Shown here: positions 37,032 to 64,000 of the stretch, piece by piece
Layout: every line of letters begins with the position of its first letter
Numbering within the stretch: position 1 is the first letter of the stretch
DNA from: a virus
Strand: one strand, 5' to 3'
IMG/VR virus record: IMGVR_UViG_3300015195_000004
Location: 1,050 to 65,049 of that record
Length of the DNA stretch: 64,000 nt
The notes under the pieces: generated by a model
Databases searched by the model: none
The model's input: only the letters and a program-made list of their open reading frames with translations
What the model was told of the DNA's origin: nothing
Made by a program: the position numbers and the translations under genes

Positions 37032-37055
37032 TCAGTTTCTCCTTCATCTCATCTT

Positions 37056-39534: not shown

Positions 39535-39538
39535 TGCG

Positions 39539-41528: not shown

Positions 41529-41539
41529 TCTTTACAAAA

Positions 41540-43703: not shown

Positions 43704-43707
43704 TGTA

Positions 43708-43736
43708 ATTATATACTATTATTCTACAATTGTCAA
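43708..43736 (-). promoter_or_regulatory. perfect sigma70 promoter TTGACA-17-TATAAT
   Basis: Direct reading. Confidence 0.85.
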
Positions 43737-43739
43737 GCC

Positions 43740-44638: not shown

Positions 44639-44641
44639 TCT

Positions 44642-45481: not shown

Positions 45482-45844
45482 CTATAACACTCTTTCTGAA
45501 GCAAATCCAAGCTCTGTGGTGTAAACAAACTTTCTGATTTTCCCTGTTGCCTTAATTAATTCGAGGCATTCTTTACAGGGTCTGCTCATTCCTAATGATC
45601 CATCATGCTTACTGCGATAAATATATAATACAGCATTTCTATCCTCTTTGTCAAGGTGCCGCATTACGGCCAATTCGCAGTGTATCCAGTTCTCCCTACT
45701 TTTGCTAGAAGGGTGCGTTTTAAATATATTGGACGAAACTGCCATCTTATTACCTACCATAAGAACAGCTACCATTTTTTTACGTTTCCAGCCATCTTTA
45801 TTAAAGTAATTACGTGCCATCTTCAGGCCAAAAGGTAGTTTCAT
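45482..45844 (-). CDS. zinc-dependent cytidine/deoxycytidylate deaminase-like protein
   Basis: KTHP, IHCE (HxE), SRPCKEC (PCxxC). Confidence 0.8.
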   Translation of the reverse strand: MKLPFGLKMARNYFNKDGWKRKKMVAVLMVGNKMAVSSNIFKTHPSSKSRENWIHCELAVMRHLDKEDRNAVLYIYRSKHDGSLGMSRPCKECLELIKATGKIRKFVYTTELGFASERVL

Positions 45845-45852
45845 ATAATCCT

Positions 45853-46254
45853 TTATCTAACGCAGTTACTACAAGTAGATGTCAGTTTAACGATGATGTC
45901 GTGAGCTATAGCGACTTGTGGGTAAAATACTGCCACCCAGTTCCATACATACAAAAGGTTCCCTAAAGCTATACAATATCCTATGACAGGGACGAAATAC
46001 AGCATAATCGCCGGAGTTGGGCCCCCATCAGAATAAAACATAGTATGTTTTAGTGGATTTAAGCATACATACAACGCTAATGAAGCAAGAATCAGGAAGA
46101 GAATGCCGACTATAATACCTTCCAGTCCCATAACTCGCTCTACACCTAATACTAGGTCTATGGTCTGGGGGCCATATTGATGGGCTGCTACGCTGACAGT
46201 CTTGGTAATTTCAGAGCCGATTTTCTCTAACTCTGAGAAATATTCATTATTCAT
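45853..46254 (-). CDS. membrane protein (about 2 TM helices), leaderless
   Basis: Hydrophobic segments; promoter TTGACT-17-TAGGAT at 46261-46289, 6 nt upstream of ATG. Confidence 0.65.
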   Translation of the reverse strand: MNNEYFSELEKIGSEITKTVSVAAHQYGPQTIDLVLGVERVMGLEGIIVGILFLILASLALYVCLNPLKHTMFYSDGGPTPAIMLYFVPVIGYCIALGNLLYVWNWVAVFYPQVAIAHDIIVKLTSTCSNCVR

Positions 46255-46292
46255 GTACTTATCCTATCATAGTATTTAAACTAAGTCAAGTG

Positions 46293-46646
46293 TTATTCTT
46301 GTGTCCAGAACATTTTCTGAATGCCTGCTTGCTTAAGGCGCATTTCGCAACGGGCACACGGTTTGTGGGTAGCATATAAAATACTACCATCAACACTAAT
46401 GCCGAATTTTGCGGCAGTCAACAGGGCATTTTCTGAATCATGAATAGTTCTTTGGCAGTGATTAGACTCCACAAGACATCCTACTTCATCACACTCAGGA
46501 GCACCTGACTGACTTCCGTTATAACCAGTAGCGAGAATCCTATTATCCCGTACTAAAACACATCCTACTCGTTTTCTAGGACATGTAGCTCTAGTAGAAA
46601 TTACTTGAGCCAAGTTAAGGAAATAAGTTTCCCATGAAGGTTTCAT
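46293..46646 (-). CDS. dCMP deaminase/ComEB-like protein with atypical HDSE motif
   Basis: RATCPRKRVGCVLV, TGYNGS, HCQRTIHDSENA, THKPCARC. Confidence 0.85.
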   Translation of the reverse strand: MKPSWETYFLNLAQVISTRATCPRKRVGCVLVRDNRILATGYNGSQSGAPECDEVGCLVESNHCQRTIHDSENALLTAAKFGISVDGSILYATHKPCARCEMRLKQAGIQKMFWTQE

Positions 46647-47518
46647 TTTCCTACGAACATCCCGCAGGACGCCTTAACATCGAATCCGACCTTACCTATT
46701 ATTTTAACATCTGACCCAGGCAGAGAATCTTTAAGGAACTGAGCATTTCGTTCAATAATACACACTTCAGGTTCTTTACCTTGCAGAGTTGAATAAGGAT
46801 TATATCTCACCACATTAAAATCAACTCGTAGATTAAAGGCCTTTATTGCTTCTACAATACTAGTCAAAGTTTCTATAGAATCATTCTCGCCCTCAATAAA
46901 TGCCCAGTGCAACTTAATAATCTTGTGGGACTCGTCTTGATAGTCCTTCAGTTTCTCTAGGGCTAGAAGGGGGTCTAATGCCTTAGGCAACCACCTCTTA
47001 CGGAATGTGGGGTCCATACTATAGAGGGAATAGTAAATGTCTGGTGTGTAGTCCTGGAAAATCTCTGAGAGGTTCTTATCCTTCATTTCAAGAGGCATAA
47101 TAGTTGAATACTTAAACTTAGGAATTACATTATAATCTCTAGCAATGTCTCCAAGGGCTCTGCATAGCCTACTTCCTCCCTGGTTATCAATTACACGAGG
47201 GTTACAGAATACTTCTCCGCGTGACATAAAATTAAAATGCATAGACTTAGCAGGTTCTTTAGTTACATAATGCTCGCACACTTGCCAAGCCTGTTCCTGG
47301 TAATCCTCAATATCAAGGAACTTATACTTCGTTTGTCCTGTTTGAGTAAGGTGACACATTCTGCAGGCTTTATCACAGCCAGTCATACTAGACAGATAGC
47401 AGATAAAGTACTCATCAGTACGTCTTACATACCTGGCCTCAATCTTACCAGGAAAGTCGCCTTCTGTTACAAAGTTAACTGAGGCGTCTTCTTGACTATG
47501 AAATATTGTATTTGACAT
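46643..47518 (-). CDS. RlmN/Cfr-like class A radical SAM enzyme
   Basis: SSMTGCDKACRMC (CxxxCxxC), FMSRGE (compare MGMGE), RYNPY, C-terminal ASCG. Confidence 0.85.
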   Translation of the reverse strand: MSNTIFHSQEDASVNFVTEGDFPGKIEARYVRRTDEYFICYLSSMTGCDKACRMCHLTQTGQTKYKFLDIEDYQEQAWQVCEHYVTKEPAKSMHFNFMSRGEVFCNPRVIDNQGGSRLCRALGDIARDYNVIPKFKYSTIMPLEMKDKNLSEIFQDYTPDIYYSLYSMDPTFRKRWLPKALDPLLALEKLKDYQDESHKIIKLHWAFIEGENDSIETLTSIVEAIKAFNLRVDFNVVRYNPYSTLQGKEPEVCIIERNAQFLKDSLPGSDVKIIGKVGFDVKASCGMFVGK

Positions 47519-47540
47519 TAACTACATCCTTGTTATACAT

Positions 47541-48240
47541 TTACTTCTCTAACTCCTCTAAAAACTTCTTGTATATAATAGCTCCGTATGTTCCTACTTC
47601 TGTTATTCCTGCACTTATTAATGTTCCGTTCATTTTTGCAGCTAATGCCGCATTTAGGGCAGCAGACATAAGTTCTGGTATCACTTTGTACTTACTAGGG
47701 AACCTAGCATAATCATTCCATAGATCAAAAGTAGGGTCAGGAACACTAACATCAATTCCCTTAGTGGCTTCTTGGTATGCAGATTCTATACTATTGCATA
47801 ATGCTTGATTATAGTTCTGGGCTTGAGATTTATCAAATCCTCCCCAATAGTTCTCATGAAGCTCAATAGGTATGTGGTTATCGTTCAGAAATTTATAATC
47901 TTCCATATTAGGATTAGCTTGTGACACAACGCACTCTTCACAGGTTTTAGGATCATGAGGATGCAGCATAGTTTCACTTTGATAATCATCAGAGGCCGAA
48001 CTATCGTAGTAGTCTGATTCCCAGTCAGCAATATCCTCATTCACAAACTCTAGTTCATGGTCCTTAAACACGTTCCCTTCTCCAGGAAATGGAGTTAGCA
48101 CTATCCAGCCTGTGGAATCGAATTCCTTAACAGTATATACCTGGTCTGTGGCATAAACATAATCCGATTGTGTTGGAGTTTTAATCCTAACCAAATCTCC
48201 AATTTCAAAAATACTTCTCATCTGGCTCCCTATCATATCT
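47541..48240 (-). CDS. hypothetical protein with SH3-like N-terminus and acidic linker
   Basis: FEIGDLVRIK motif; start uncertain (about 48236). Confidence 0.55.
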
Positions 48241-48466
48241 TTTCTCCTCTGTGATTCCACAATCCTAGTAAACACATAATTAAGTACACTGAATAGCTGC
48301 AAAATAAGCCCCAAGCGTGATAGTGCCATGCAACCGGCATTAAGGCTACATCAGATAAAGTGCCTAACAAAAACCCCTGGTTAGGCCTCTTATAGGCCAG
48401 CATCATTGATCCTAAGGGACCAGCAACAGAACCTAGTATCTCCAGTACCCAATAAGGATTAAGCAA
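48233..48466 (-). CDS. small PnuC-like membrane protein
   Basis: Three short hydrophobic helices; W..GLF..YSVY.....GLWN pattern. Confidence 0.5.
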   Translation of the reverse strand: MLNPYWVLEILGSVAGPLGSMMLAYKRPNQGFLLGTLSDVALMPVAWHYHAWGLFCSYSVYLIMCLLGLWNHRGEKI

Positions 48467-50934
48467 CTTCTTTATATCCTTTAGTACAAGGACAATCTTT
48501 TTCTCTACACTGTTTTACTGCATGTTGCCATCTTACATGTGGGCATTCTTTACATAGATCATAATGCCGGATGTTGGATTCCACCATGTCCTCAAAAAGT
48601 TCTACTTCATTTCCTTCTAAGAAAATATCTACTGGATAATTAGAGCTTTCTTTGAATTGAAAGAAGTAACAATGCTCTTTCGTTTCTCTTACTGTTTTAT
48701 AAAATCCGTGGCATCCCCACATTGTTTCATATTCAGTAGACTTGGTGGCATATACAGGCACGGCATCTACTTTAGCTTGAGCTTCTTGCCAGGTTGAAGC
48801 CAACACCCCTACATAAGTTACAGGTCCACCACCCATCGGGTCTCCCAGCCTAACTACTCCCCAAAAACGGCCTTCACATATCTTTTTAATCTCTTCTAGT
48901 AATGCGGCCCTATTATCTATCCCGGCATTCTTCTCTACTTCGAGAATCTGATTAATAGATAAGTAAGAGTCATCCTTCTTGTATCTATAAAGAAGAGGGG
49001 TATCTATGGGGTTTATAGCAGAGATGTACATTAATCGTGGCAATAACAATCTGAATCAGTACAACCATTATCATCTGATTCTGAATTGTCCCCAAAGATT
49101 TCATCTGGGTCCAGTTCTTCTAGTTTATCAATTAGAACTTGAACTTCGTCTTCTACATTATTCCAGAAACTATATCCTTGAGGGGTCAGTGACCAGCTAA
49201 TGCCAGATATTAGGAGGTCTTGCAACTTCCGTATATCCTGTACGGTGTGACCATCAAGCAAGAAGGTCTCCTCTTCGTCTTCAGTACATTCTGTATATTC
49301 ATCAATAACTGCCAATGCCGATTTGGGGTAGGAAGTGCCATAAGCCGCTTCAATAGCGTACTTAAGAGTCTCTGCCTGTTCTTTAGTTAATTGTTGCATT
49401 TCTTTTCTATCCTTTTCTTAAGTTTTTCTTTATGTAAGGTTAGTGCCCGTCGCAAAGACGAGCACCGTTCTTGTATCTTACTAGGTTTTGTAGTTCTTGT
49501 CAAGTCCTAGTATATTAATATTTGGGTATGTAGTTATGATGCCCGGCATCTCAGCATGGAGAATCCTACAAACAACTTCTGTTACTTCCTCAGGTTTACA
49601 TTTGATCTTAACTACATTATTCTTAGTATAGAAGTCTAGTGATATAGTAATTACTCCATCATAGTGCCAGTCTTTTACTGGCCCAGAGGTAATGTAGTCT
49701 TCCTGAAGACGAATTCTATACAAATCCTTGCCAAGGAAATTATCCTCTTCCTGTTTAACATATAGTTCAATACACTCAAAAGCCCCTACCTTCTTAATTC
49801 CTAGAAACCCTAAGGTATAAGAATAGTTAAAAAAGTTAGCTGGCTTTGTAGTGTTCGGATAGTCTCCGTCTGGATGATTGGCCCTAAGGTACTCAAGAGT
49901 TATTTCCTTAGGTACTAAGGTTGTTTCTTGATTTGACATTTTATTTTCCTTTAGTTTATTATTTAAGCTTTATGCCTTCTTATATTATATACTATTTAAT
50001 GCTGCCTGTCAATACTATGGTGCCGGATTTTGGTATAGCTTATTCAAAAGATTCAAAATGAGATAGGTTATGTATAACTATAGCCCGGCGAGGAGGGATT
50101 ATATCATTCTCTACCTCTTCCCAGGATTCACCTGCATCTACTGTATCCACAATGAGCATAACAGGTTCATCATTAATTAGTGCCGGGTAGAAAACTTCCG
50201 CATTTAGGTTCTCAGTAGCTAGAAGGCCTATTAACTGTTTTACAGTCATTAACTATAACTCCCTGCTGTTTTCTAATTCATATACTTTTGGATAGTGTCG
50301 TTTTAAGGTTTCGGCCTTTTGATGAGGTAGGCATCCATACCCACAACCACAATCTCTATTCCTCAGACTTTCGGCAAAGTCCCAGGCTTTCCAGAGGGCC
50401 ACAGAAGTTGAATCATTACACATGCTTGTAATCCGGCCATCATATAGCCCCATTATCTCATATATGTGTTTAATGCCGTTTTCGTCATACTTAAATTCAA
50501 CTTTGGACATATATTAATAACACCCAAGCTTCCACAGGATTTGGCACAATGGCCCCACTACCTTGGCGGCAGTATTTAAGTATAACTTATGATACCACTC
50601 TACCTTATTACACATAGGGGTAATAATATACTTAAATTCCAGCATTAGTATATTAACAGGCAGAAACTTATAGTACTTAAATAAGGTCCAAGGAAATAAT
50701 CCTACAATAAGGATTAGGAGGAATAAACTATATCCTAATAACATATTAATCTAGGATAACCCATTCAGGATTAGAATTAACTACAGTGACCCCACGGGTA
50801 GTGGTAATGTCTGGGGTAGACCGTTTATCATCATAAAGGAAGACTTTAGTCTCAGGCGGCAAATTAAGCCCCTGAAGAGTTGTAATAAGGTCTCCTATAG
50901 AAAAGGTAGCTTGTTCGGTTGTCGGCTTATACAT
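48459..50934 (-). CDS. cluster of hypothetical proteins (48459-49049, 49031-49399, 49481-49939, 50040-50249, 50253-50510, 50514-50744, 50746-50934)
   Basis: ORF track; promoters at 49984-50012 and 50941-50969. Confidence 0.6.
49443..49465. other. intergenic 9-bp hairpin GTGCTCGTC-TTTGC-GACGGGCAC
   Basis: Inverted repeat; no adjacent U-tract. Confidence 0.45.
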
Positions 50935-50955
50935 AAATTAACTATACAACACTTT

Positions 50956-51260
50956 CTATATAATGTCAAGCCTATATGACGGATATGGTGGAGGATTTCT
51001 GCTATATGATAATGTGCCTTTTCTATATGGAGAGCTATATGGTTTTAATTGAAGAAAGGCTATTGGTAGAGTCCATATTTGCTTGACATATTAATACCTT
51101 AAACTAGCCAAAATGGGGCAATTCATACTCTCATATAAAATATCATTAAATTAGGCACATTTCTTAGTTTAATCTGTTCTTTTCACTTGCTTACCTTACT
51201 ACGAACATAAGTATGTATGATTAATACATAGAATAGCATAAGAAGTGTCGTGTTTTTGCA
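50956..51260. repeat. CTATATG direct repeats next to an AT-rich non-coding stretch (candidate origin)
   Basis: Exact copies at 50972, 51002, 51023, 51035; variants at 50956 and 50982. Confidence 0.45.
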
Positions 51261-51271
51261 GATTTTGGTAG

Positions 51272-51469
51272 TTAATTGTTGATTAAAAAATTTCCGTGAT
51301 AGTCAAAATTGAATGTATAAAGCTTCAAAGGTTCCTTGCCCACACATACCCCAGGCACCCCATTACCAATCATGATTAATGATGGAACCTCTACATACTC
51401 AATATTTCTTTTATTTAGTTCCTGTATAAGGAGGTACTTGTGTGATAACTTAGTTGGCATATTAATCAT
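51272..51469 (-). CDS. hypothetical protein
   Basis: ORF track. Confidence 0.5.
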   Translation of the reverse strand: MINMPTKLSHKYLLIQELNKRNIEYVEVPSLIMIGNGVPGVCVGKEPLKLYTFNFDYHGNFLINN

Positions 51470-51477
51470 ATCTTTCT

Positions 51478-51792
51478 TTAGTATTTTAATCCTAAGTCTG
51501 CAATTACAATGCCGGTTTCTTCGGCAGTTAAATTAGGGTAAGCGTATCCTAAAGCCGGTCCTAGTCTCTTAAAATCGTAGAACTGCTTAATAGCAGCTAG
51601 GGCATCAAGATTGTCCCATGTGAACATAACCTGGGGACCATAAGGCTCCGCACCACCTTCACCAATAGTCCCCTGACAGCTTGCCAGAGTCCTAATTCCA
51701 GGTATAGTGTTCATGTGAATAACCATAGGGGCTATCCCCTCATCAATATCCACAACTACTTTAACCGGGAGGGTTTTATGAGGTTCAGCCAT
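51478..51792 (-). CDS. TYW3/Taw3-like small protein
   Basis: DIDEGIAPMVIHMNTIPGIRTLASCQG resembles the TYW3 D..I..L...IN......T.SSC.G motif. Confidence 0.55.
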   Translation of the reverse strand: MAEPHKTLPVKVVVDIDEGIAPMVIHMNTIPGIRTLASCQGTIGEGGAEPYGPQVMFTWDNLDALAAIKQFYDFKRLGPALGYAYPNLTAEETGIVIADLGLKY

Positions 51793-53373
51793 TAGGTATA
51801 TTCTCCATTAGCTTGTGCTTCTTCTGTTAGTGTATCTAGTATTAACTCTCCAAGATGCTGGTTTAGTTTAACTAATGCAGAATCCAAAGGCTTACCCTCT
51901 TTATATAGAAAGTTAAAGCCGGGCAGTTTATTCAATAAACTAACTAAAGATTGGCACTCTTCTCTTGTTAAATTAAGCATACTACTATTATACCTCTTAT
52001 ATCTTTATATGTCAAGCTGCAGTTTATATAGAAAGGGCCAGAGATTGCCTCCAGCCCCGGTTCCCTATAGAATTGCCTGTGGTCCTTCCCTAGTAACCGG
52101 AGGATGCCATCGTGCCCATGCCTTCCTATAGGCTTCAGCTTCCTCACTAGTACTTCCATTAGGCTCAAAGAACTGGACTGATTCGGGCGTAGGTGCTTCG
52201 GGAGCAGCCTGCTTAGACATCCCTGGTCCTGGCTTTACCCAAGTGGGGACGGCAGTCTCATTGTTTAAAATAGAGTAGTTACTTTATTAGGATCATTAAA
52301 TGTTTTTTCTAGTGAAGATAATCTAGTATATTCTATATCGTCGGCATCATATACGAGGTCCCTAAGGGGTTGTGCTAGTTCTGCAGGTAATGATTTAATA
52401 CTTAATGGTACAAGTTCCTGTATAGTTAGTGCCCGGAACCTTAATTTCGTTCGGCATCGGCCTGACATTTCATACTCAGGGGTAAATTGAATATTTAATT
52501 CATACTTCCCCGAATCCGCCTGAGCGATAATCATAGATGTAGCGATGTGTAGGTCTACAACCTTGTAATAGGTAGTCTTCTGTAAAATGGGTCTCATATT
52601 CTTCTTCTTTCATAGGTAGAGATTTTGAGACTGAGGCATTACATACCCAAGCTCAGTCTCTACTATAACACAAAGAATACTACTTGTCAACTAAAATCAG
52701 AGTGCCCGCTATGATAAGGTCTCCAGGTTTGTGGCCCTAATGTGCGGCAAAGTATCATTAGTACCCTACCATTTACCTGTCCCCATTGGGCTAGGAATTC
52801 AACATCCGGGGCACTAAATACATAAGTTCTAAGATTCTTATCAATAATACATTGTAATAAGGTACGGACTAGACCTGGGAATGCTTTTAAAGCAGTAAGG
52901 TATAGTTTATTCATTATTTAAACTAAGGCCTTTAATATTTAACTTACTAGAGAATAGGAGGCAGGATTTATGATAAGACCTAGCTCCCCATTGCAAAAGT
53001 GGCACGTTATATCCACCTGCTTTAAGGGTTTAGATTTAAATACTTTAGGCGGATTATAATACTCTACCCCGTTTAATATAATCCTAGCATCTTGTGTATT
53101 AGGATTAATGTCCCCATATAATATCCCTGGGTGGAGGTTCCCTGTGGGGGTTAAATCATCTGCGTACATACCCTACCAACTAAGCCCCACAAGAACCTTT
53201 AAGGTAAAGACAGTAAAGGCGGTAAGTACTACACCTGATATAAGTTTATGACAAGCACATTGTCCTAATATTAAACCTAAGAAACTGCCCAGATATGCAG
53301 CTACATAGATAGCTATGCCCAAAAGGCCTAGAATTACTCCATGAACTGTATGAGGATTAAATAAGTTATTCAT
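51792..53373 (-). CDS. cluster of small hypothetical proteins (51792-51980, 52265-52597, 52687-52914, 52939-53169, 53173-53373)
   Basis: ORF track; promoters at 51987-52015, 52662-52690 and 53380-53408. Confidence 0.6.
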
Positions 53374-53434
53374 AGTCCTATTCTATCATATTCCTACTAA
53401 CCTGTCAATATGTACAAAACTAATAAGAACTATG

Positions 53435-54092
53435 CCCCACCCCTCCCTACTTATATACAAATTAAGCACTTCTTTTCTCAGTAGGAGCAGCAACATAGCC
53501 CGGCATATGTATTAGCCTAGCTTCGTGAACCGCCTTGGCGGCATCCTCTAGATTCTGAAAATTACCTAAATTGATTTTCTTCCTAGCCTTCCTACCACCT
53601 ATCCATATATTGGTCCTCCAGTAACCTTCCTGGCCCGGTCGCCGAGGCTTTGACCACCAGACTCCACTTACCCCCGAAGTGTTTGTAGGATGAAGGAACC
53701 TATAGTTTTGCCCGTTCTCAGTCCTAGTTACGGTTCGTAGGTTAACCCGTCTATTATCTAGAGTGTTGCCGTTTATATGATCCACTTCTAGCCCTATGCA
53801 CTTATCACCCATAATTACTCTATGTAAAGATTCTTTAGGATAACATTTAAATACATAGCTGGTATGCTGGTTTTGGGTATATAAATACCAATTATATTTA
53901 TCTAATAAGTATTCATCCTCTGGATCAATAAGTACCCCTAGGGTGATTAATTCGTGTTTAGTCATTATGAATACTATATCAAGTTAGCAGACAAGAGTCA
54001 AATAAAACGAGAGCTTAGTGGGCAGTTGGTGTGTCCCGTTTCGAGAATCAATTTTGATTTGATCTCGCAACTACCCCCAGGGAGGGGGGGGG
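53435..54092. repeat. 14-bp imperfect inverted repeat (53435-53448 and 54079-54092) flanking the HNH-AP2 gene
   Basis: Reverse complement of CCCCACCCCTCCCT matches AGGGAGGGGGGGGG at 13 of 14 positions. Confidence 0.6.
53462..53965 (-). CDS. HNH-AP2 homing endonuclease
   Basis: LHRVIMG, EVDHINGNTLDNRRVNLR, NTSGVSGV.W, LGNFQNLEDAAKA; own leaderless promoter at 53973-54001. Confidence 0.9.
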   Translation of the reverse strand: MTKHELITLGVLIDPEDEYLLDKYNWYLYTQNQHTSYVFKCYPKESLHRVIMGDKCIGLEVDHINGNTLDNRRVNLRTVTRTENGQNYRFLHPTNTSGVSGVWWSKPRRPGQEGYWRTNIWIGGRKARKKINLGNFQNLEDAAKAVHEARLIHMPGYVAAPTEKRSA

Positions 54093-54186
54093 GTACCCCT
54101 CTAGCGGTCTAAGGTTCCTGCTCCTGCTTCATACGGATGAAGGTCGAAAGACCAGAACCACCGGTATATACTTGCTGCTATTTTAC

Positions 54187-57100
54187 TCATAATGCCGCCT
54201 TTATTGCCTCACGTACTTCCCGCAATAGATTAGCCATCGGGAGGGAAGAGACGTAGTAGTGGTTAGGATGCTCTAGGAGGTTGATTAGGTCCTGTGAGAG
54301 TCTCATGGTAGTTCCTTGCCTTGTAGGGCAGTTCTCTAGAAGGGGAGTGCTGCTACTGCCGTCTGTGCGGCGTGCGCTAGGAAGAGGACTGCTATGACTG
54401 CGGAGGCTATGAGGGCGGCGGTTACTGCTTGGAACATATCGTCTCTCCTTAGTTCTGAGTGAGTCTTTCTGTATCTCTATACTACCATATGGAGGGTACG
54501 ATGTCAACAATAGAGTATGTGTATACTCTTATCTTTACGTTCCATACAATCGGGAATCGTTTATGTTATTCTGTTTAATGCTTACTTGTACAGTGTAGTA
54601 AGGACAGTAGTCTCATGCGTGTGAGTGCTTGCATGCAGGAAAGTGTAGTTAATTACCGAGAAGAATCTGCTAAGAAGAGAATGGTTATAAGAATAATATA
54701 TCTTTCTTCTACCTAACAAAAAAGAAAGGGCCTATTTCCCTTCCTCTTGAAATTCAGGCCAATCACCATACCGTATATCCTGTAGGTCCTCTCTTCCCTT
54801 TTGACATTCCTTACCTATAGGTTGTATCACGCTGCCAATATAAATGCCCTTGGAGGCTCTCTTCATCCTCTTATCACATATAATGCAGGTTAGGTAGTTA
54901 ATCATAGTAGTATTATCTCATAATGCCGACAACTTGTCAATACACTTGACAGGAAGATAAAAGTATGCTGAGAAGAATACGTCTATTCATTAGAATGATA
55001 TATCATTCACGGGATATAAAGAATCCTCTAGGAGGCTGTTTAGTTCATTCCTATAAGATAGGACAAGGGAAGGGAGATCGGAGGCTTGTAAGCCCCCTGT
55101 GTTTCAACAATTTTGAGGGGGAGAGTGAATCCGTATTCCTTTTGAGCTTTCTTGCCGGAGAACTTCTTAACCGCCTTCTGTGCCGATTCTAGCGTCTTAT
55201 GGCGGGAGTTTATATATTGGCCGTCTGCTGCTACGATATAGTAGGGGTATTCATTTTTTAGTCCTAAGCTACTCATGGTTATTTCTCCCTTAAACACATA
55301 ATACTCTCATCTGCATAAGATGTCAAGAGGGAAAATAAAAAGGCACCTTGTTAGATGCCTAGTAAGAAGGGGGAGGGAAGAGGGACTAAGATAGGGAGTT
55401 ATATACAGTGCAAGCTTCATCCATTGCCGCGCGGGCAAGGACTACAGAAGCCTTTGCATTAACTATCTCATTATATAGAGATTCTACTTTTAAGACTCTT
55501 TCAGGATGCATCTTTGTCTTTACATATATAAGATGCGGGGTTTTATAGATAGTATTGTAAGCTTCATAGTAAGAAGGGGAAAGATTAAAGACTACTTCAT
55601 TAGCTATACTTAATGCCGCGTTCGCGGTGTTGTACGCCTCCAAAGCTTCCTTCTTAGTCATTAGACGCCTTTCTTTGGGCAATGAAGGCTAAGTATGCGG
55701 CCGCTTTGGCGGGATTATGTACGTTCTTGAGGACTCTTGCGGCGTTGTGAGCTTCTAGGGCTTTTCATACTTTGTCATTTCATTTCTCCTTTTGTATATT
55801 ATCGTCTAATTAATGCCCGAAAACAAGGTAGTTTATATAATCTTTACATTCCTGGGGACCAAGGAGAAAAACCGTCAATATACGTTGTGTTGGTATCGTC
55901 ATAGGTTATTGCAGAAACTAGAGGAAAGTTCAAGTCTGAGTCCTTTTCGTGCGGAGGAGTAGAAGGCTGGTCCTCAATTAATACCGCAAGCCTGTTACTT
56001 GCTTCTAAGGCTTCTTTACTTCCCGATACAGTATTCCCCATTACATCTAAAGTAGAGATTAATCGAATGGTTTTTGATACAAGCATGTGTATTCTCCTTA
56101 CTGCTATAATAACATAAGAGTATAGTTTAATCAAGTATGAAATGCCGGTTTTATGTAAAGATTAGGACCTTAAAATCGCCTACTAATCTTGGTTACGGGA
56201 CGGTTACGGTGTCTAAACCGCGTATTTTATTGTACAATGCCTCACATTGTTGCTGGAATGGACTAGTTGGTGTATCGGCGCGCGCCCTAGCGCGAACAGT
56301 ATAGTGGCTAGTTGTTGGCTATTAAGCTTCATATCGTCTCTCCTTGTCCGTTGCATCCGTTGTTTTCGTTTACAGCCTTCAAGTAGGCCACACAGGCGGC
56401 ACATGGTATGCCTGTTTCCTTTAGTTGCTTATCGCAGGCGTCCGTTTCTTCTTGCCTAACACGCATTGTCAGTTCTCCTTCTACTTCGCGTTGCGGGCTA
56501 GGAGTTCCAGCCCTGCGAGCGCGTTCTCGGCGATGAACTTGGACTTCGTTGTTGCCAGGTGGTTGAGTGAGGGTGAGAGTTTCATGTCGATTCTCCTTCT
56601 GTGCTTTGGTTATACTCTAGTGATCGGCAGTTCACATCCCCACTTTAGCCCTTCTGTGTATCAGTACTGTAAAGGTTACGACTTGCCCCACAAATGCCCC
56701 AGGAGACCGCCTTTCGCCCCCTTACCATCACCCATCCTATCGACCCAAAGCGTCTCCTGTGCCCTCCTGTGAGTAAGCAAGCGTCTACTATCTTGAGCAC
56801 ACATGCATAGTAAGGCGAGCATGCCATTTGCTAGTTTTCCCGAAGGTCGTTGAGAAGCGATAGTGACAGCAAGAATCCCATCGCGTCTTTTCGTGGTTCA
56901 ATGCCGGTGATGATGACTTCTTCGCCCGGATCATTTTGCCCGTTTGCGTCTATGAAAACTTCTAGGTTGCTTGGATATTGGGACAGGGCGTGAACTAAGT
57001 CTTTAATTTTCATCTCACACCGCCAATGCGGATTGGTAGGCTTCGTAATCAGCAGGGCTATCAAGCTTATGCTTGCAAAAGTCTTTAAGTACTTCGTCCT

Positions 57101-60100
57101 GCGTCATGTTAATTACCTTTCAAGATTTCATGTAGATTAAGGAAGAAAATCGCCATTCCTTCAGTATGTATTACGTAATGTGAGGGATTTTGTATTAGTT
57201 CCAGAATGTCGGCTGAAAGTATCATTTGATGCCCGCGATCGTAATTTCCATATAAAGGTACTCTCTAGTAGGCCATGAGACCTTGCAGGAGTGGAGGATG
57301 TAGTCCTTCCAAGATTTAGATTGTCCTGAGAACCAGTATAAGCTTCTTGAGACTTCCATTTGAATTTCTCCCTTTTCTAGATTATACTCTTATTAAGTAC
57401 AAAATGCAAGCTTTTAAGTAGGGGTATTTGCTTCCTTTACATACTCTTCAAGGAGCCTCGCTTCGCAGGTATTACGATTACAATACGCAGAAATTGTTTG
57501 AGTATTGAAGAAAACTTCCCATACTCCACCCCTCGAACGCATTCCCCAACCACCTTTTACCATGTATTGAAGCTTGGCCGATCTAGAATACTTGCATGTT
57601 ACATAATGCCCGTTTTCTTGATTAATCGGTACTTCACAGTAAACGCATATCCCTTTTTCAAGGTTTTCAGTTTCGCGTTCCTTGTATAGTTCGGTTGGGG
57701 TTTTCATATTCTGTACTCCTCTTTTATATATAATAGCAGAGTATACTTATATCGTCAAGTAGTTAATTGTAAAGAAATTGCCGGAAAAAGAGAAAAGCCT
57801 CTACCGGAACCCCGCTATAACCCAGGGTAAGGGGAGGCTATTAGTTTTGGTACGGTAAACTTTATTGCTTTTATCCTCAAATTAGCAGGAGTTTACTTCC
57901 AGGGGTTAAAATTAGTGCCCTTTTTAAGTACCATCTAGGGCTAAGATGTAAGGAGTCTTTCATCCTCGGTGTATCTATACTATACTACCTTTTTAGTTTA
58001 TTGTCAAGTGTTATTTTAGGGGTTTACGATGTCGTTACGATAGAGAAGAATAAATCCTAGAAATTTCCAATCGGTCCTAAGGACAGGCTTGGCATAGCCT
58101 AAAATGTCGCGCGGTTGGAAAACATACGTTTTCTTAGTGATCATATCAATTCTTCCTTTTCTCCGCATTTATAGCAGAATATATTTTCATAAGATGTTCT
58201 ACAGGAAGGGTGCCGTTTTTAATCATCGGCAGTAGGCGTTGAAATTCTTCGCATGCAGTCATTTTTTGACCTTTTAGTGCCTATGAGACTTTTGCGGGAG
58301 CGGAATACTGATCGGACCTACTCCGGTTTTAGGATTCGCCTTGAAAAACAGTGTAGCGGAAAACTGAGACAATGCGGCCTGAGCATAGGGTACAGGCTCT
58401 TTGCCATTGTACAAATCGTGGTATAGTGGAGGAGTTACCGTTTCATAAAATGCGTTGCCGTTCGTCACTCCATACTCATACCTTGTGTAGCCAATAGTTG
58501 GTTTTGTAGTTAATACTTCTAGAGTGTCTGAAAGTTTCATGTTCTACTCCTTTAATATATAATAACACATAAGAGTATAGAAGTCAAGATCGTTATGTAA
58601 AGAAAAAAGAGAACCGGAGTCCTCTAGTTTCATTCCTTTTTAGTGAACGATACAGAATGGGGAGGGATGTCCTGGTTGGCAAGGGAAGCTTAGGGTTGTG
58701 TGATTTGCCGGAATGGTTCCGGCACTAGGACTACATGCCGATACGGCAAGAAGGGTAAGGATTGTGATTAGTTTATTCATATTTGTACTATACTATATAT
58801 TTTTGCCTTTTTGCAATAGTCAAGAAGGGTCTTGCTTGCTTTAGCCAGGGATTTGAGCAGCAGCGTAAGCTTCCGGGTTAGTTATTTCTTTTTAATGTAT
58901 TTCCAGGAAGATCGGCAGCAGTCTTTGCAATTCTTCGCAGGCAGTCATTATAAATACCTACTTGTCGAAGTGCTTCCGAACCCACTAAAGAGTTTAGCGG
59001 AGAAGCGAGATTTTCCGGCACGGCCTACAAACGACCCTCTATTTCCTCTTAATTCATGGTAAAGATTTACCGCCCTTTCCTCTTGTCCTACTGTGCCGGA
59101 ATTGTGAGGAATGATTAAGTAGTCATTAGGATTATGAGTAGCTAGGATTCTAATTGAAGTTGAAACTTTCATGTCTGTTTCTCCTTAAGTGTTTAGTGCT
59201 TTAATACATAATAACACATGAGAGTATAGGATGTCAAGTGATTAACCCTGTTCTCACAGCAATCATTACAGCATGGGTGCGATTATCAGCACCTAGTTTT
59301 TGAAACATATCGCATAAATGGTTCTTTACCGTTTTTTCGGAAATTCCTAGCATTTTGCCGATTTCGGGATTAGTTCTTCCTTCTGCGAGAATGTCAAGAA
59401 TTTGTGTTTGTCTTTCCGATAAAGCATTAAGGTCTTTAGGTACAAACCTTTTTGCTCTAGCAGTAACAATTTCTGTATAATTCATCAGAATGGTCCCGTA
59501 TAGTGAAGGGCATCAACTGCTAAGAACATTGCTTCCGTCTCGTCAAAAGCTTCTTGTAATTGATCTTCGGTAGAAACTTGTGGCAAAAATCCTAAAAGAT
59601 AGCGTTTATATTCAGGGTTGCCTAAAGATTGGTGGTTGGAGTACATTTTAGAACGCATTCTCATTAAGATATTCGTTTTCCTCGTCTGTGAGGTCTTTAT
59701 AGATTAGGTATCCGTCATTTGATATTACAGTATATCCGGCTTCAAATAATTTGGTTTCCATTTCGGTAGCAATTTCGTATATATTGCCGTTTTCGTCTGG
59801 TTCTGAATACTCCTCAATGCCTTCTGGTACTTCTTGCTCCAGCAACCCGCAGGCATCAAGGATTAAGCAATTTGATAAAAACCTTCCTCTAGAACCATCC
59901 CGCGCGATTATACATTTTGAATCTATAGAAAATTGTAGTCTGTCCTCTTTCTCCTCATCTGTTTCATCTAAAATTTCATTGCAAGTTGTTTCAGATAGAT
60001 TCCCATGATCGGATAGTATATATGCAGAAGGAAAGAAATTCGGTCCTATTGCGTCTAAAACGTCCTTCTTATTGTCATAAAATTTCCCGTTATAGTTCCA

Positions 60101-60190
60101 GCCGGTTTTCGATCCTAGGAGACCATATGATACTTCTACTACTGATTCGTAAAGTTCATCTTGTGAGGGATTCTCATTATCTTCGGACAT
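54187..60190 (-). CDS. block of more than 20 small minus-strand early genes (examples: 54187-54306, 55040-55276, 55386-55661, 55844-56086, 57414-57707, 58274-58540, 58640-58780, 58948-59172, 59648-60190)
   Basis: ORF track plus manual translation; mostly with AGGAG SD and dedicated promoters. Confidence 0.6.
55341..55360 (-). terminator. Rho-independent terminator
   Basis: AGGCA...TGCCT stem followed by TTTTATTTT on the minus strand. Confidence 0.55.
59234..59485 (-). CDS. stand-alone LuxR/NarL-type HTH regulator
   Basis: LSERQTQIL..LAEGRTNPEIGKMLGISEKTVKNHL..MFQKLG..NRTHAV. Confidence 0.9.
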   Translation of the reverse strand: MNYTEIVTARAKRFVPKDLNALSERQTQILDILAEGRTNPEIGKMLGISEKTVKNHLCDMFQKLGADNRTHAVMIAVRTGLIT

Positions 60191-60379
60191 CGGTTTTCTC
60201 CTTATGTGAGAAGTTCTGTTCCCTCAGTATACTCTTATGGTTCTAGGAACGTAAGGGCTATTCTGCAATAAATTGTAAAGAAACACTAACAAAATGCCGC
60301 ACGGTAAGCATTGACATTCTTATGATATGAGAGTATACTATGGATGTCTTCGAGGCAATGCCTCAGAAAAGGAAATAAC

Positions 60380-61673
60380 ATGATTACCGGAACAGATGTT
60401 GAAACCGAGAAGATTCAAGCACTAGCGCAGCATCTTGACATTGGCCTAGATTCGGCAGCATTTAAGTTTGATGCTAGAGATTACAAAGTCCTTACAGATG
60501 AGGAAGCGGATGAAGCAGTTAAGGATTATATTTGCGAATCTGCCTGGGCGTTTAAGGCATCCTTCATTCTGGAGCATACAAAGCTTCCTTACGAAGCAAA
60601 GGAAATGATTGAAAATTTCCAAGAGAAATGCGAAGGAGCAAATGATACGATTCTTGCATTAATCACGGATTTTGATAAGTTTCGTAAAGATGCAGTTAGC
60701 GACGATGGTAGGGGGCATTTTCTAGCAGCATACGATTCTGAAGAGAATGAAGAAGTTGTAAATGGAACTACCTACTTCATCTATAGGGATAACTAGGATG
60801 AAGCAAGCATTAGTATTAGTCCTTACCCTTAATGTAATCCTCTATATGCCTTCTGCCGGATTAGCAAGAGGGGGAGGACATCATTCAAGCAGTCACCACT
60901 CTTACCACCATAGGAGCAGATAATGCCGACTTTTGTAGAGCAAGCAGAATCTTGGGCAAGCGATAAATACCCAAATCATACATTTTGTGATATGGAAATT
61001 TCCGACTGGATTCAACTTATAGAAATGAATTACATAGGAGGTTGGAGGCAGTTTGTTTCTGAGAGGTATCAATGACTAAACAAGAATTACAAGGAATGTT
61101 TGACCGTTTAATTAAAGAACGGCAGCATTTATTCCTTACATATCAATTTACAGCACTAATACAATACATATATCATAATGGGTATAAAGTAGAAGGAAAG
61201 GTTATTATATAATGCCGGATTACAAAACAAATTTCCTGAACATTGAATCTTGGTTGAGGTGTGGTACTACCAGCATTAAGATTGTTAGGCTTTCAACCCC
61301 TTCGGAACCGAACCTAGTATTTCTTCGTGCTGAAGGATTAACTACTTGGGATAGCTATGAGGTTAGGGTATGAGAGATGTATCACGTATAGACAGAATCC
61401 TTGCGTTAGTTCGGGCATATTGGATTAGGAATCCTGACCAGCGTTTCGGGCAAGTTCTACTTAATACTGCATTTCTTGCAAGTGATGCCCCCGTACCGTT
61501 TATGTGGAATCAAGAAGATGATGTCACAGAAAAATGCATCTGGTTTTGGGGCAATGACTAATGCTACTTCTTGCAGCACATTTGGTAGTTTTATCCTTCA
61601 TTATACTAGGATTAAAACTAATAGAATCTCCAGAGTATAAGAAATACAGAAAGCAACGTGGCTACTTCTTGTA
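60380..61673 (+). CDS. plus-strand early genes: 60380-60796 (acidic, DGRGHFL..YD family), 60798-60923, 61370-61561 and other small ORFs
   Basis: Downstream of the 60311 promoter; overlapping stops and starts. Confidence 0.6.
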
Positions 61674-61690
61674 AGCCTAAAGGAATTATT

Positions 61691-62479
61691 ATGAACCTCG
61701 AAAATGCCTTTTCTGATTATGTAAAGTGGATGCTCCAGAATCGGAAATCTCCTCTATCTGCGAAATCTTATGCCGAAACTTTTAACCAGTTTTCAAGAGC
61801 AGGCTATGGGATTGTTGAAGATACGGCAGTTGAATCCTTCCTACAGGCTTTCCCCACCCTCTCTACGAGAAATAAGAAGATAGCTCACCTTCGGGCATTT
61901 AGTTCTTGGGTTAATCGGAAGCCTAGTTTACGCGAAGCAGGATTAGTTAAGGACTTTACCTTCCAGCAGACTAAGCTGCCGGTTTCTTTGCCGGTTATCG
62001 TTTCGCAGGAGGTTCTGGACCCATTCCTTGAACGCCTAGAAGACGAAAACCCTTTCGTTTGGGCACACGCGGTCCTTCTAAAATACACGGGATTACGCTT
62101 CACTGAAGCATGGAGTTTACGAGAGGGTCATTTATGTTACCCCTCACCTGGGGTCGCTTGTATTAAGTTTCGAGGCAAGCGGCAGAATGAAAGAATCGTC
62201 GTTTTGAATAAGGAGGGGCTTGCAGCATTCAAAATATGGACCAAGCAGAACGCTTTCGTTTCTCCAGCAGTGATTAGAACCACCTGGAAGAGGCTACAAG
62301 AGGGTTCAGAGGCGTTTGTGCCTCATGTTGTGCGGCATACTACAGCAAGCAATATGCGGGCCTCTGGGGCATCTTATGACCAGATTGCGGATTTGCTTGG
62401 CAACTCAGTTTCCGTTTGTCGAGAGCGGTATTCGCGTGTTGATATTAATGGAATGAAGGATATTATGGATAAGCTCTAA
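61691..62479 (+). CDS. tyrosine recombinase (Xer/integrase family, 262 aa)
   Basis: YTGLRFTEA (R), FRGKR (K), PHVVRHT (HxxR), LLGN, ERY (Y). Confidence 0.85.
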   Translation: MNLENAFSDYVKWMLQNRKSPLSAKSYAETFNQFSRAGYGIVEDTAVESFLQAFPTLSTRNKKIAHLRAFSSWVNRKPSLREAGLVKDFTFQQTKLPVSLPVIVSQEVLDPFLERLEDENPFVWAHAVLLKYTGLRFTEAWSLREGHLCYPSPGVACIKFRGKRQNERIVVLNKEGLAAFKIWTKQNAFVSPAVIRTTWKRLQEGSEAFVPHVVRHTTASNMRASGASYDQIADLLGNSVSVCRERYSRVDINGMKDIMDKL

Positions 62480-62733
62480 AGGTTATCCCAATATGCAGCA
62501 TATGTTTCATCATCATAAGGGGTAGGAATGTGGAGGTAACGACAAGCTCTGCATTGCCCTGACCCTTGTCCCTCAAATCCTGGGTTTAGCTTCAAAATGC
62601 CGCATTTGGAGCAGGCTACAGCATCCTTTACTTCATATCCATATAAATCTGACCAAACTGGAGCATGGGAATTTTCTATCCAAAGCTCAAAGCATTCTCT
62701 ACGATGCTGACAGGTTTCACATTCACAATACTT
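62476..62733 (-). CDS. Cys-rich hypothetical protein
   Basis: CECETC, CSKC, CRAC; start trimmed to avoid the long overlap with the MazG-like gene. Confidence 0.5.
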   Translation of the reverse strand, partial: KYCECETCQHRRECFELWIENSHAPVWSDLYGYEVKDAVACSKCGILKLNPGFEGQGSGQCRACRYLHIPTPYDDETYAAYWDNL

Positions 62734-63286
62734 CATAACATGTGCAGCTTCCTTCTTCAGTCTTCCAGTGAATCCCATTATGCTCTCTAAAAGGTCTTGG
62801 GAACCCATTACAAGGTCCCTGTCCTTTGGCTGTACATACATGATCTCTAATACAGGTTTGTGGGATCAGTTCTGCATCATTAAATGTTGCCGGTTTTGTA
62901 GGAATTATAGGCTTATTAGGGAAGGTTAAGGCTTTATCTACCCTATCCTGTGCCGCCTTATCTGTATAACCTTTAGGGTATCTTTTTTCTAGTTTATCTA
63001 TGTTAGCTTGTAGCACTTCATCTCTAGATACGTTTAATCCTGCTCTAATACCTTGTAGGTAAAATTCAATGTCGCCAAGCTCCTCAATAGCATTTTCTCT
63101 ATCTAGGGGCTTATTATACACACATGCCTTTTTTATAGCATCAATAAGTTCTCCTGCTTCTCCGCAAATGCCTACAGCCATGTGGAGCAAATGCATATCA
63201 GAGTGAGACATAGAGTTAAGTATGTCTTCTCCGCTCTTGCTATTTCCATTAACCATTGCAGCATGATTTTTTTCTATATTATTCAT
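62723..63286 (-). CDS. MazG-like NTP pyrophosphohydrolase
   Basis: GICGEAGELIDAIKK, EELGDIEFYL, NIDKLEKRYP. Confidence 0.85.
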   Translation of the reverse strand: MNNIEKNHAAMVNGNSKSGEDILNSMSHSDMHLLHMAVGICGEAGELIDAIKKACVYNKPLDRENAIEELGDIEFYLQGIRAGLNVSRDEVLQANIDKLEKRYPKGYTDKAAQDRVDKALTFPNKPIIPTKPATFNDAELIPQTCIRDHVCTAKGQGPCNGFPRPFREHNGIHWKTEEGSCTCYEVL

Positions 63287-63471
63287 TTCTTGCTCCTAAG
63301 TTCTAAAGCTATATCAAGCAGCAAATTTAAAGTAACCGATTGATTTAATAATATATGGGCCATCGTTTTTACTTCTACAGAGTTAAACCATCGTTTAGCT
63401 AAAAGCTCTGCCATTTGGGCAGTATGTTCATTAGCAATCTTTACGTGTTCAGCTAATTGGTTATCGGTCAT
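63283..63471 (-). CDS. hypothetical protein
   Basis: ORF track; ATGA overlaps. Confidence 0.55.
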   Translation of the reverse strand: MTDNQLAEHVKIANEHTAQMAELLAKRWFNSVEVKTMAHILLNQSVTLNLLLDIALELRSKK

Positions 63472-63806
63472 TTTAATACTCCTCTATTCTGTCCTTGAAA
63501 ATGGTATTCTTTCGCATAAAATGCCCTAAATAGGGGGTCTATAATAGCATCAGGAATAGCCTTAGTGCCACACGTAAACAGGTCGATAGAAACAATTCCT
63601 AGGTCTGGGCTAGAATGTAGGGCTAGGTGGCTCTCAGAGAGAAGGAAAATGATACTCAAGCCTTGTGGGCTGAATTGGTGACAAACCTCTCCTAAGACGG
63701 TCAGACGGGCCTTTATCGCCGCATTCTTAAGCTCTTTGAAGCAGTACTCCATGCTGTTCGTAGCTTGAGGACAGCAGCCAAAGAAATCTAGGGTCATACT
63801 TCTCAT
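63468..63806 (-). CDS. speD: S-adenosylmethionine decarboxylase proenzyme
   Basis: HQFSPQGLS, LLSESHLALH (self-cleavage ES), IDLFTCG. Confidence 0.9.
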   Translation of the reverse strand: MRSMTLDFFGCCPQATNSMEYCFKELKNAAIKARLTVLGEVCHQFSPQGLSIIFLLSESHLALHSSPDLGIVSIDLFTCGTKAIPDAIIDPLFRAFYAKEYHFQGQNRGVLK

Positions 63807-64000
63807 ATTAATTCATCTGTGTTTTCATGAGGATAATATACTTCTGACCTTTAATAGGGACCCAACCAAGCCAACTTGCTTCGGTATCTAACCTTACTTC
63901 GTTACGAGATTCTACAATAATGACATCTTTAAGTATAGGGGAGGTTGCTTCATTATCTGGTCTCATGGGTTTAGTGCCCTCTGTGTATTCTGCATATTAA

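What the first reader, a model, noticed from the sequence alone, without database searches (positions are those of the whole stretch)
58201..61260. Strong over-representation of the pentamer TGCCG/CGGCA
Seen: manual count of 18 sites (both orientations) in this 3.06-kb stretch, against roughly 2-3 expected from base composition if GC is near 38%; AGCCG and GGCCG types occur about twice each. About 12 sites lie in the 5.2-kb TMP gene, so enrichment looks window-wide but strongest in the early block, including intergenic spots. Known: Bacillus subtilis AddAB recognises a pentameric Chi (AGCGG). Inference: a host Chi-like or self-marking motif protecting incoming linear DNA (both orientations would be needed in a terminal repeat), or a site for a phage DNA-modifying or DNA-binding protein.
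Basis: partly seen in the sequence, partly recalled or inferred. Interest (0 to 1): 0.6.

Follow-up and report, generated by a model that had tools for sequence, protein, structure and literature searches.

The report
Genome-wide TGCCG word bias in phage
The five-letter word TGCCG (and its complement CGGCA) really is the most over-used pentamer in this 89-kb phage genome even after correcting for codons, but it behaves like an ordinary genome-wide word bias and not like a Chi-type or protein-binding signal, apart from a small local cluster of a longer word (TGCCGGAA) that could be a regulator's binding site.

Summary
The count is right: 18 TGCCG/CGGCA sites lie in 58201-61260, against 2.8 expected from base composition. 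After synonymous shuffles that keep protein sequence, per-gene codon usage and dinucleotides, the genome holds 220 sites against 144 expected (z about 10). That is rank 1 of 512 pentamers, and rank 1 in each third of the genome.

The bias is not special to the early block. It is genome-wide, equal on both strands (111/109), present in four reading-frame classes and in DNA outside the long genes, and has uninformative flanks.

Three points make it look ordinary:
- Its size (1.5x) matches the top words of T7 and SPP1.
- The same pentamer ranks 1-2 in some Clostridia genomes.
- TerL-related phages lack it.

Polarity is weak, T7's known primase pentamers are not enriched, and no DNA methyltransferase was found. 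None of this favours a Chi-like, primase or modification site, though none is excluded because the host is unknown.

A second, local layer may be functional. The 8-mer TGCCGGAA occurs five times in 57779-59101, once as a perfect palindrome, next to a GerE/LuxR-type regulator gene.

More striking in passing: RGATCY and SAGCTS sites are completely absent.

The parts
1..64000 (.). Window-wide (and genome-wide) over-representation of TGCCG/CGGCA: 173 sites in the window, 220 in the 88.7-kb genome
   Evidence: rank 1 of 512 pentamers after codon- and dinucleotide-preserving shuffles (220 observed, 144 expected, z 9.9). Rank 1 in each genome third. Every full 8-kb bin has a ratio above 1.
58201..61260 (.).
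13188..18356 (-). Tape-measure-size gene (1722 aa) holding 18 sites against 7.0 expected
57779..57786 (+). TGCCGGAA copy 1, just upstream of the promoter at 57758-57730 (- strand)
58706..58724 (.). Perfect palindrome TGCCGGAA-TGG-TTCCGGCA (copies 2 and 3 of the 8-mer); candidate operator, or an RNA hairpin inside a small ORF
58736..58748 (.). Inverted repeat TGCCG-ATA-CGGCA
58211..58231 (.). Inverted repeat TGCCG-N11-CGGCA inside a 38-aa ORF
58225..58263 (.). 39-nt direct repeat (87% identical to 58911-58949) that carries one CGGCA in each copy, so two of the 18 sites are not independent
   Evidence: family D1.
58911..58949 (.). Second copy of the 39-nt repeat
59013..59020 (-). TGCCGGAA copy 4 (reads TTCCGGCA on the + strand)
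59094..59101 (+). TGCCGGAA copy 5
59234..59485 (-). 83-aa stand-alone GerE/LuxR-family helix-turn-helix protein; candidate binder of the TGCCGGAA palindrome (inference)
   Evidence: PF00196, E 4e-19; PHROG sigma factor / transcriptional regulator.

Best explanation
There is no discrete element at 58.2-61.3 kb. TGCCG/CGGCA is the top word of a coherent, genome-wide oligonucleotide-usage bias (a 'genome signature') of this phage.

Shown: the bias acts on DNA and not through proteins or codons. It is about equally strong in four different reading-frame classes and in DNA outside the long genes. It is strand-symmetric overall, has no informative flanks, and is present in every module (structural, nucleotide-metabolism, early, replication).

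Inferred: it most likely comes from the context-dependent mutation and repair spectrum under which this genome replicates. That could be the phage's own PolA-based replisome, the host's repair, or both, perhaps with weak DNA-level selection. It is probably not a site that a protein reads.

The higher density in the early block has three likely sources: chance fluctuation; a duplicated cassette and three small inverted repeats; and a separate local motif. That motif is the 8-mer TGCCGGAA (five copies in 1.3 kb, one perfect 8-3-8 palindrome), which may be the operator of the adjacent GerE/LuxR-type regulator.
For: Genome-wide and codon-independent:
- 220 observed against 127 (synonymous shuffle) or 144 (dinucleotide-preserving shuffle) expected, rank 1 of 512.
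- Four frame classes are each enriched 1.6-2.8x. DNA outside genes of 80 aa or more has 49 sites against 11.8 by dinucleotide shuffle.
- Rank 1 in each third of the genome, and the thirds' z-profiles correlate at r about 0.5. All full 8-kb bins have a ratio of 1.1-2.1.

Symmetry and lack of extension:
- 111 TGCCG against 109 CGGCA on the + strand.
- Flank information is at most 0.12 bit per position.
- All eight hexamer extensions are enriched to a similar degree.

Ordinary effect size:
- T7's top word is 1.40x (z 6.6 in 40 kb).
- SPP1's GCCGC is 1.49x (z 11.5 in 44 kb).

The same word is biased in cellular genomes:
- ATGCCG exceeds its backward control in most of 401 Clostridia genomes, and the phage's ratio of 3.7 lies in the top 1%.
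- The codon-aware test puts CGGCA at rank 1-2 in three of those genomes, with ratios 1.32-1.39.

Not a lineage trait: TerL relatives (GC 52-56%) show a ratio of 1.05.

Local layer: TGCCGGAA occurs 5 times in 57779-59101 of 15 genome-wide. No GC-rich 8-mer clustered that much in 40 order-3 Markov simulations. The GerE-family gene lies next door.
Against: - TGCCG is an isolated outlier (z 9.9; the next word is the overlapping GCCGA at 5.4). That is what a selected word looks like, and less what a broad mutational trend gives.
- No single-mismatch neighbour is depleted enough to be the mutational source.
- The phage's overall codon-aware pentamer profile does not correlate with any sampled bacterial genome (r at most 0.10). 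'Host signature' is therefore not shown. The bacterial genomes that share the word were picked because of it.
- A modest orientation pattern exists: 63 against 36 in genome 30-65 kb, z 4.0 against shuffles. A purely symmetric process would not produce it.
- The host is unknown, so the key comparison is missing.
Confidence: 0.6

Rival explanations
1. Chi-like self-mark. TGCCG (or CGGCA) is the pentameric recognition sequence of the unknown host's AddAB/RecBCD-type nuclease. The phage has accumulated it in both orientations to shield its linear or permuted DNA ends and to channel them into recombination by its own RecA-like protein.
For: - An isolated, strongly over-represented short word that survives all codon controls.
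- A pentameric Chi is known in Bacillus subtilis (AGCGG; my own knowledge).
- Orientation runs switch near genome 30 kb and 65 kb.
- The phage encodes a RecA-like recombinase and a PD-(D/E)XK nuclease.
Against: - Overall orientation is 111/109 and local skews are only 60-64%.
- The switch points were chosen from the same data (p = 0.012) and are not mirrored by GC3 skew.
- In bacterial genomes that share the enrichment, orientation skew is weak and only loosely follows GC skew (r 0.40).
- No paper in the held library links TGCCG with Chi.
- The host is unknown, and the contig may be incomplete (CheckV 57%), so positions relative to the genome ends cannot be judged.
Confidence: 0.12
2. Primase recognition site. 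The phage's T7 gp4-like primase-helicase recognises a pentamer (for example 5'-CGGCA-3' on the lagging-strand template, with a cryptic 3' base), and dense sites favour frequent priming.
For: - The phage encodes a fused Toprim + DnaB_C protein of 623 aa and a family-A polymerase.
- T7 primase sites are pentamers (my own knowledge).
- The orientation pattern could fit forks diverging from about genome 65 kb.
Against: - In T7 itself the known primase pentamers GGGTC, TGGTC and GTGTC are not enriched (z 1.2-1.9, ranks 83-123 of 512), so priming sites need not be, and are not, over-represented in the model system.
- One site per 400 bp is far denser than priming requires.
- Bacteria share the same word bias.
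Confidence: 0.07
3. By-product of restriction-site avoidance. The genome has been purged of several sites, and the displaced codon choices pile up in TGCCG, as GATT words do in T7.
For: - Very strong avoidance exists: RGATCY 0 against 57.6 expected, SAGCTS 0 against 46.4, GATATC 0 against 12.4, CTGACG 0 against 13.
- Clear escape words are seen: GGATCA 76 against 45.6 and CAGCAG 102 against 71.
- T7's top words are GATT-type.
Against: - None of the synonymous one-step alternatives of TGCCG, in any of the four frames, is strongly depleted. TGCAG, TGCCT, TTCCG and GGCCG have z about 0. TGCTG and TGCCC are themselves enriched.
- The only depleted neighbours (TGACG -21, TACCG -18, TGGCG -15) are mostly not synonymous alternatives.
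- The enrichment also holds in DNA outside the long genes.
Confidence: 0.08
4. Local regulatory motif only. The excess inside 57.8-61.3 kb reflects binding sites (TGCCGGAA half-sites and one palindrome) for the GerE/LuxR-type early regulator, on top of the genome-wide bias. This adds to the best explanation and does not replace it.
For: - 5 of 15 genomic TGCCGGAA copies lie in 1.3 kb, and 7 of 22 TGCCGGA copies in 3.4 kb.
- There is a perfect 8-3-8 palindrome at 58706-58724.
- No GC-rich 8-mer reached 5 copies per 1.5 kb in 40 simulations.
- PF00196 protein at 59234-59485. GerE/LuxR proteins bind inverted repeats as dimers (my own knowledge).
Against: - Four of the five copies lie inside ORFs, at no fixed distance from promoters.
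- The motif and the window were chosen after looking.
- The palindrome also works as an RNA hairpin in a transcript that folds better than shuffles (z -2.95).
- No relatives are available to test conservation.
Confidence: 0.2

Closest known systems
Genome signature / oligonucleotide usage bias of phage and bacterial genomes (Karlin-type relative abundance; tetranucleotide usage deviation; my own knowledge)
   Same: Genome-wide, strand-symmetric, independent of reading frame, reproducible between parts of the genome (r about 0.5). The effect size matches the top words of T7 and SPP1.
   Different: One word stands well apart from the rest (z 9.9 against 5.4). The profile matches none of the sampled bacterial genomes.
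Chi sites (E. coli GCTGGTGG; Bacillus subtilis AGCGG for AddAB)
   Same: A short, over-represented, non-palindromic word. A pentameric example exists.
   Different: No strong orientation polarity in the phage or in bacteria that share the word. No sequence likeness to known Chi words. Recognition by a nuclease is untested.
T7 gp4 primase recognition pentamers (GGGTC, TGGTC, GTGTC)
   Same: The phage has a gp4-like primase-helicase, and the word length is the same.
   Different: T7's sites are not over-represented in T7, so enrichment is not a property of such sites.
Escape words created by restriction-site avoidance (for example GATT-type words in T7, GGATCA here)
   Same: The same genome shows extreme site avoidance and clear escape words.
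   Different: TGCCG has no depleted synonymous partner.
lux-box / GerE-type operators (inverted repeats bound by dimers of LuxR-family HTH proteins)
   Same: The 19-bp perfect inverted repeat TGCCGGAA-N3-TTCCGGCA lies beside a GerE-family gene.
   Different: Binding is untested. The other copies are isolated half-sites inside ORFs. This applies to only 5-7 of the 220 sites.

Membership tests
Genome-signature word bias | Present throughout the genome, not confined to one region | tested here: met
   Rank 1 in each third (z 7.5, 5.0, 6.6). Ratio 1.1-2.1 in all full 8-kb bins.
Genome-signature word bias | Equal on both strands | tested here: met
   111 against 109. Coding-strand counts are 95 against 106. 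Modest local runs exist.
Genome-signature word bias | Independent of reading frame and present outside genes | tested here: met
   Four frame classes at 1.6-2.8x. DNA outside long genes has 49 sites against 11.8.
Genome-signature word bias | Shared with the host genome | not testable with these tools
   The host is unknown. The same word ranks 1-2 in 3 of 7 sampled Clostridia genomes, but whole profiles do not correlate with the phage (r at most 0.10).
Chi site | Statistical over-representation | tested here: met
Chi site | Strong orientation polarity relative to replication or DNA ends | tested here: inconclusive
   Permutation on the range of cumulative skew gives p = 0.012. Segments show 60-64% in one orientation. 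There is no matching GC3 skew. Genome ends are unknown.
Chi site | Recognition by the host RecBCD/AddAB with attenuation of degradation | not testable with these tools
   Needs the host and biochemistry.
Primase recognition site (gp4-type) | The phage encodes a zinc-finger/Toprim primase fused to a DnaB-type helicase | tested here: met
   L048:3558-5429, Toprim_2 + DnaB_C. The zinc-binding domain was not examined.
Primase recognition site (gp4-type) | Primer synthesis starts at the word | not testable with these tools
   As a calibration, T7's own sites are not enriched.
Restriction-avoidance by-product | The word is a synonymous neighbour of a strongly avoided site, with a matching deficit | tested here: not met
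   The z-scores of neighbouring words are near 0 or positive. The avoided sites found are unrelated in sequence.
Target of a phage DNA methyltransferase | The phage encodes a DNA methyltransferase | tested here: not met
   PF00145, PF01555 and PF02086 give no match in the 88.7-kb contig. The contig may be incomplete.
LuxR/GerE-type operator (local 8-mer only) | Inverted repeat of dimer-compatible geometry near a cognate HTH gene | tested here: met
   58706-58724. The gene at 59234-59485 matches PF00196.
LuxR/GerE-type operator (local 8-mer only) | Protein binding and a regulatory effect | not testable with these tools
   Needs EMSA or reporter assays.

The most novel reading that the evidence does not exclude
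TGCCG/CGGCA is a positively selected functional pentamer. It would be either a new Chi-type word read by the AddAB/RecBCD of an uncultured Firmicutes host, or the start site of the phage's gp4-like primase. The phage keeps it at one site per 400 bp, with orientation domains that switch near genome 30 kb and 65 kb.
Probability: 0.15. Interest if true: 0.7.

Novelty: new member of a known kind. Interest (0 to 1): 0.3.

Why it matters
If this is only a word bias, its value is mostly methodological. It shows that a pentamer can pass codon- and dinucleotide-aware shuffles at z about 10 and still be of ordinary size when calibrated against T7, SPP1 and bacterial genomes. It may also help as a host-prediction feature for an uncultured phage family.

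If the minority reading holds, it would give a candidate Chi or primase word for an unstudied phage-host pair.

The side findings may be more useful for working out the host and the early regulation. These are the total absence of RGATCY and SAGCTS sites, and a candidate GerE-type operator.

Tried and rejected
Searches for relatives and host:
- Nucleotide and protein searches of the INPHARED phage collection with the region and a 646-aa ORF found nothing.
- TerL peptide patterns found nothing in viral or genome contigs. A TerL alignment gave only three relatives at 45-51% identity with very different GC.
- Host identification failed. Endolysin and recombinase hits are at most 33% identical and point only vaguely to Bacillales/Clostridia. 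The Atlas gave no taxon. There are no tRNAs. Earlier scan notes hold nothing on this motif.

Comparisons that did not fit:
- The Bacillus subtilis phages SPP1 and PJN02 do not share the bias.
- Rfam found nothing in 56.5-62 kb.
- The two roughly 200-nt promoter-to-terminator stretches are not homologous.

Ideas rejected:
- A very-short-patch-repair type signature: the T-containing deamination products TGCTG and TGTCG are not depleted.
- Clumping of GC-rich codons: AGCCG, GGCCG, CGCCG and TGCGG are not enriched.
- Hairpin stems as the main source: only 14 site pairs lie within 40 nt against 20.7 expected, although 8 of the 14 are of the TGCCG...CGGCA type.
- Replication-linked compositional skew: GC3 skew follows only the coding strand.

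Failed run: one script timed out and was rerun.
Full report
**Setting.** The window is bases 1050-65049 of a single 88,709-bp contig. The contig is an IMG/VR viral record classed as linear, with a CheckV completeness estimate of 57%. GC is 40.4%. It is a tailed phage. It has a T4-type large terminase, a 1722-aa tape-measure-size gene, a GH25 endolysin, and, outside the window, a T7-like replication set: a fused Toprim-DnaB primase-helicase, a family-A polymerase, a RecA-like protein and a PD-(D/E)XK nuclease. It has no relatives among deposited phages. Its terminase has only metagenomic homologues at 54% identity or less.

In 58201-61260 there are 11 TGCCG and 7 CGGCA, 18 in all. Expected counts are 2.8 from base composition, 2.7 from dinucleotides and 5.6 from trinucleotides. 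An order-3 model gives 15.2, but on 3 kb it is largely fitted to the sites themselves. AGCCG and GGCCG types occur twice each. The tape-measure gene holds 18 sites, not about 12.

- The genome holds 220 sites: 111 TGCCG and 109 CGGCA on the + strand.
- I called 162 ORFs crudely and shuffled synonymous codons within each gene. Expected 127, sd 9.0, z 10.4.
- A stricter shuffle swaps only codons with the same amino acid, first base and following base, so dinucleotides are kept. Expected 144, sd 7.6, z 9.9.
- In both tests the word ranks 1 of 512. The next word is the overlapping GCCGA at z 5.4.
- The test is conservative in the early block, because short ORFs and fixed intergenic DNA leave little to shuffle.

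**Anatomy of the bias.**
- Four frame classes are each enriched 1.6-2.8x: xxT-GCC-G, xxC-GGC-A, xCG-GCA and xTG-CCG.
- DNA outside genes of 80 aa or more has 49 sites against 11.8 by dinucleotide shuffle.
- Flanking positions carry at most 0.12 bit, and all eight hexamer extensions are enriched alike. The unit is therefore the pentamer.
- The sub-words alone are not enough. AGCCG, GGCCG, TGCCA and TGCCT are not enriched.
- Each third of the genome puts the word at rank 1 (z 7.5, 5.0, 6.6). The thirds' full z-profiles correlate at r about 0.5.
- All full 8-kb bins have observed/expected ratios of 1.1-2.1.
- The early block is only marginally denser than the rest: 27 sites in the best 5-kb window against 12.4, scan p = 0.013; for 3 kb, p = 0.2.

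**How unusual is it?** I ran the same pipeline on other genomes as a calibration.
- T7's top word is CAATC/GATTG at 1.40x (z 6.6 in 40 kb).
- SPP1's top word is GCCGC at 1.49x (z 11.5 in 44 kb).
- A 1.5x top word is therefore normal for a phage.

**Is the word biased in cellular genomes?**
- A whole-genome count of ATGCCG against its backward control in 401 genomes of the Clostridia phylum showed ratios mostly of 1.3-2.2.
- A few genomes reach the phage's 3.7.
- In DNA taken from those genomes, CGGCA ranked 1-2 in three of them (ratios 1.32-1.39). It was unremarkable in others.
- The bias therefore occurs in cellular genomes that lack this phage's proteins.
- Those genomes were chosen for the word, however. 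Their overall profiles do not resemble the phage's: r is at most 0.10, against 0.5-0.7 within a genome. A host origin is not shown.
- The TerL relatives have GC of 52-56% and no enrichment (ratio 1.05). It is not a family trait.

**Chi-like.**
- Overall orientation is balanced.
- Along the genome, CGGCA dominates in 0-30 kb (47:31), TGCCG in 30-65 kb (63:36; z 4.0 against shuffles), and CGGCA again in 65-88.7 kb (26:17).
- The permutation p for the range of the cumulative skew is 0.012.
- The segments were defined from the same data. GC skew at fourfold sites follows only the coding strand. The true genome ends are unknown.
- In bacteria that share the word, orientation skew is small.

**Primase.** T7's known pentamers are not enriched in T7 (z 1.2-1.9).

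**Modification.** No C5, N4/N6 or Dam-type methyltransferase is found.

**Avoidance by-product.**
- The genome has no RGATCY (57.6 expected), no SAGCTS (46.4), no GATATC (12.4) and no CTGACG (13).
- Clear escape words are seen (GGATCA, CAGCAG).
- No synonymous neighbour of TGCCG is depleted.

**The local layer.**
- The early block has repeated strong promoters and a tandemly duplicated cassette, which copies one CGGCA.
- It has three TGCCG...CGGCA inverted repeats.
- It has five copies of TGCCGGAA within 57779-59101, of 15 genome-wide. These include the perfect palindrome TGCCGGAA-TGG-TTCCGGCA at 58706-58724.
- In 40 order-3 Markov simulations, no GC-rich 8-mer reached five copies in 1.5 kb.
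- The neighbouring gene (59234-59485, - strand) encodes an 83-aa GerE/LuxR-family HTH protein.
- An operator role is a reasonable but untested inference. The copies mostly lie inside small ORFs, and the palindrome also forms an RNA hairpin.

**Verdict.** The best reading is an ordinary, if clean, genome-wide word bias, with a possible small regulatory motif superimposed. A Chi-like or primase function remains possible at roughly 15-20% combined. It cannot be settled without the host genome or biochemistry.

Noticed in passing
whole genome (window 1-64000 and L048-L050): Complete absence of RGATCY (0 against 57.6 expected, z -10.6), SAGCTS (0 against 46.4), GATATC (0 against 12.4) and CTGACG (0 against 13). 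Near-absence of GAGTTC, CAGATC and TGGCCA. YGATCR and WAGCTW are not depleted. This points to hosts with BstYI/XhoII-type and unusual SAGCTS-type restriction, and fits the lack of any phage methyltransferase.
   Followed up: partly
window 58640-58780 (- strand): A 46-aa ORF begins MNKLITILTLLAVSAC, which looks like a lipoprotein signal peptide with a lipobox. Its ATG sits at the predicted start of the transcript from the promoter at 58816-58787, and a terminator follows at 58625-58608. It is a candidate small secreted lipoprotein (superinfection-exclusion type). The RNA folds better than shuffles (z -2.95).
   Followed up: partly
window 57790-58010 (- strand): About 190 nt without an ORF of 30 aa or more, between a near-consensus promoter (TTGACA-17-TATAGT at 58007-57979) and a terminator-like stem with a T-run near 57800. 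There is no Rfam match and the fold is no better than shuffles.
   Followed up: partly
window 58146-58540 and 58878-59172: A tandemly duplicated early cassette. Each copy has a promoter with a shared 36-nt core, a gene of about 75-88 aa, and a mini-ORF starting MTACEE (39-nt repeat, 87% identical).
   Followed up: partly
L048 (genome 65050-85049): A T7-like replication and recombination module lies outside the window: a Toprim+DnaB_C primase-helicase (3558-5429), a PD-(D/E)XK nuclease with a weak, below-cut-off LAGLIDADG-like match in its middle (5701-7674), a RecA-like protein (11304-12425) and a family-A DNA polymerase (17074-19197).
   Followed up: no
L001-L003 (IMG/VR relatives): Phages sharing 45-51% terminase identity have GC of 52-56%, against 40% here. 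That is a large compositional split within one phage family.
   Followed up: no
L027 (Bacillus phage SPP1): SPP1 has its own isolated top words, GCCGC/GCGGC (205 against 137, z 11.5) and CCCGG (z 7.6), under the same codon-aware test. I know of no explanation.
   Followed up: no
window 50896-52400: The 8-mers TATAGAAA and ATATAGAA occur five times within 1.5 kb, at the place another note flags as a candidate origin.
   Followed up: no
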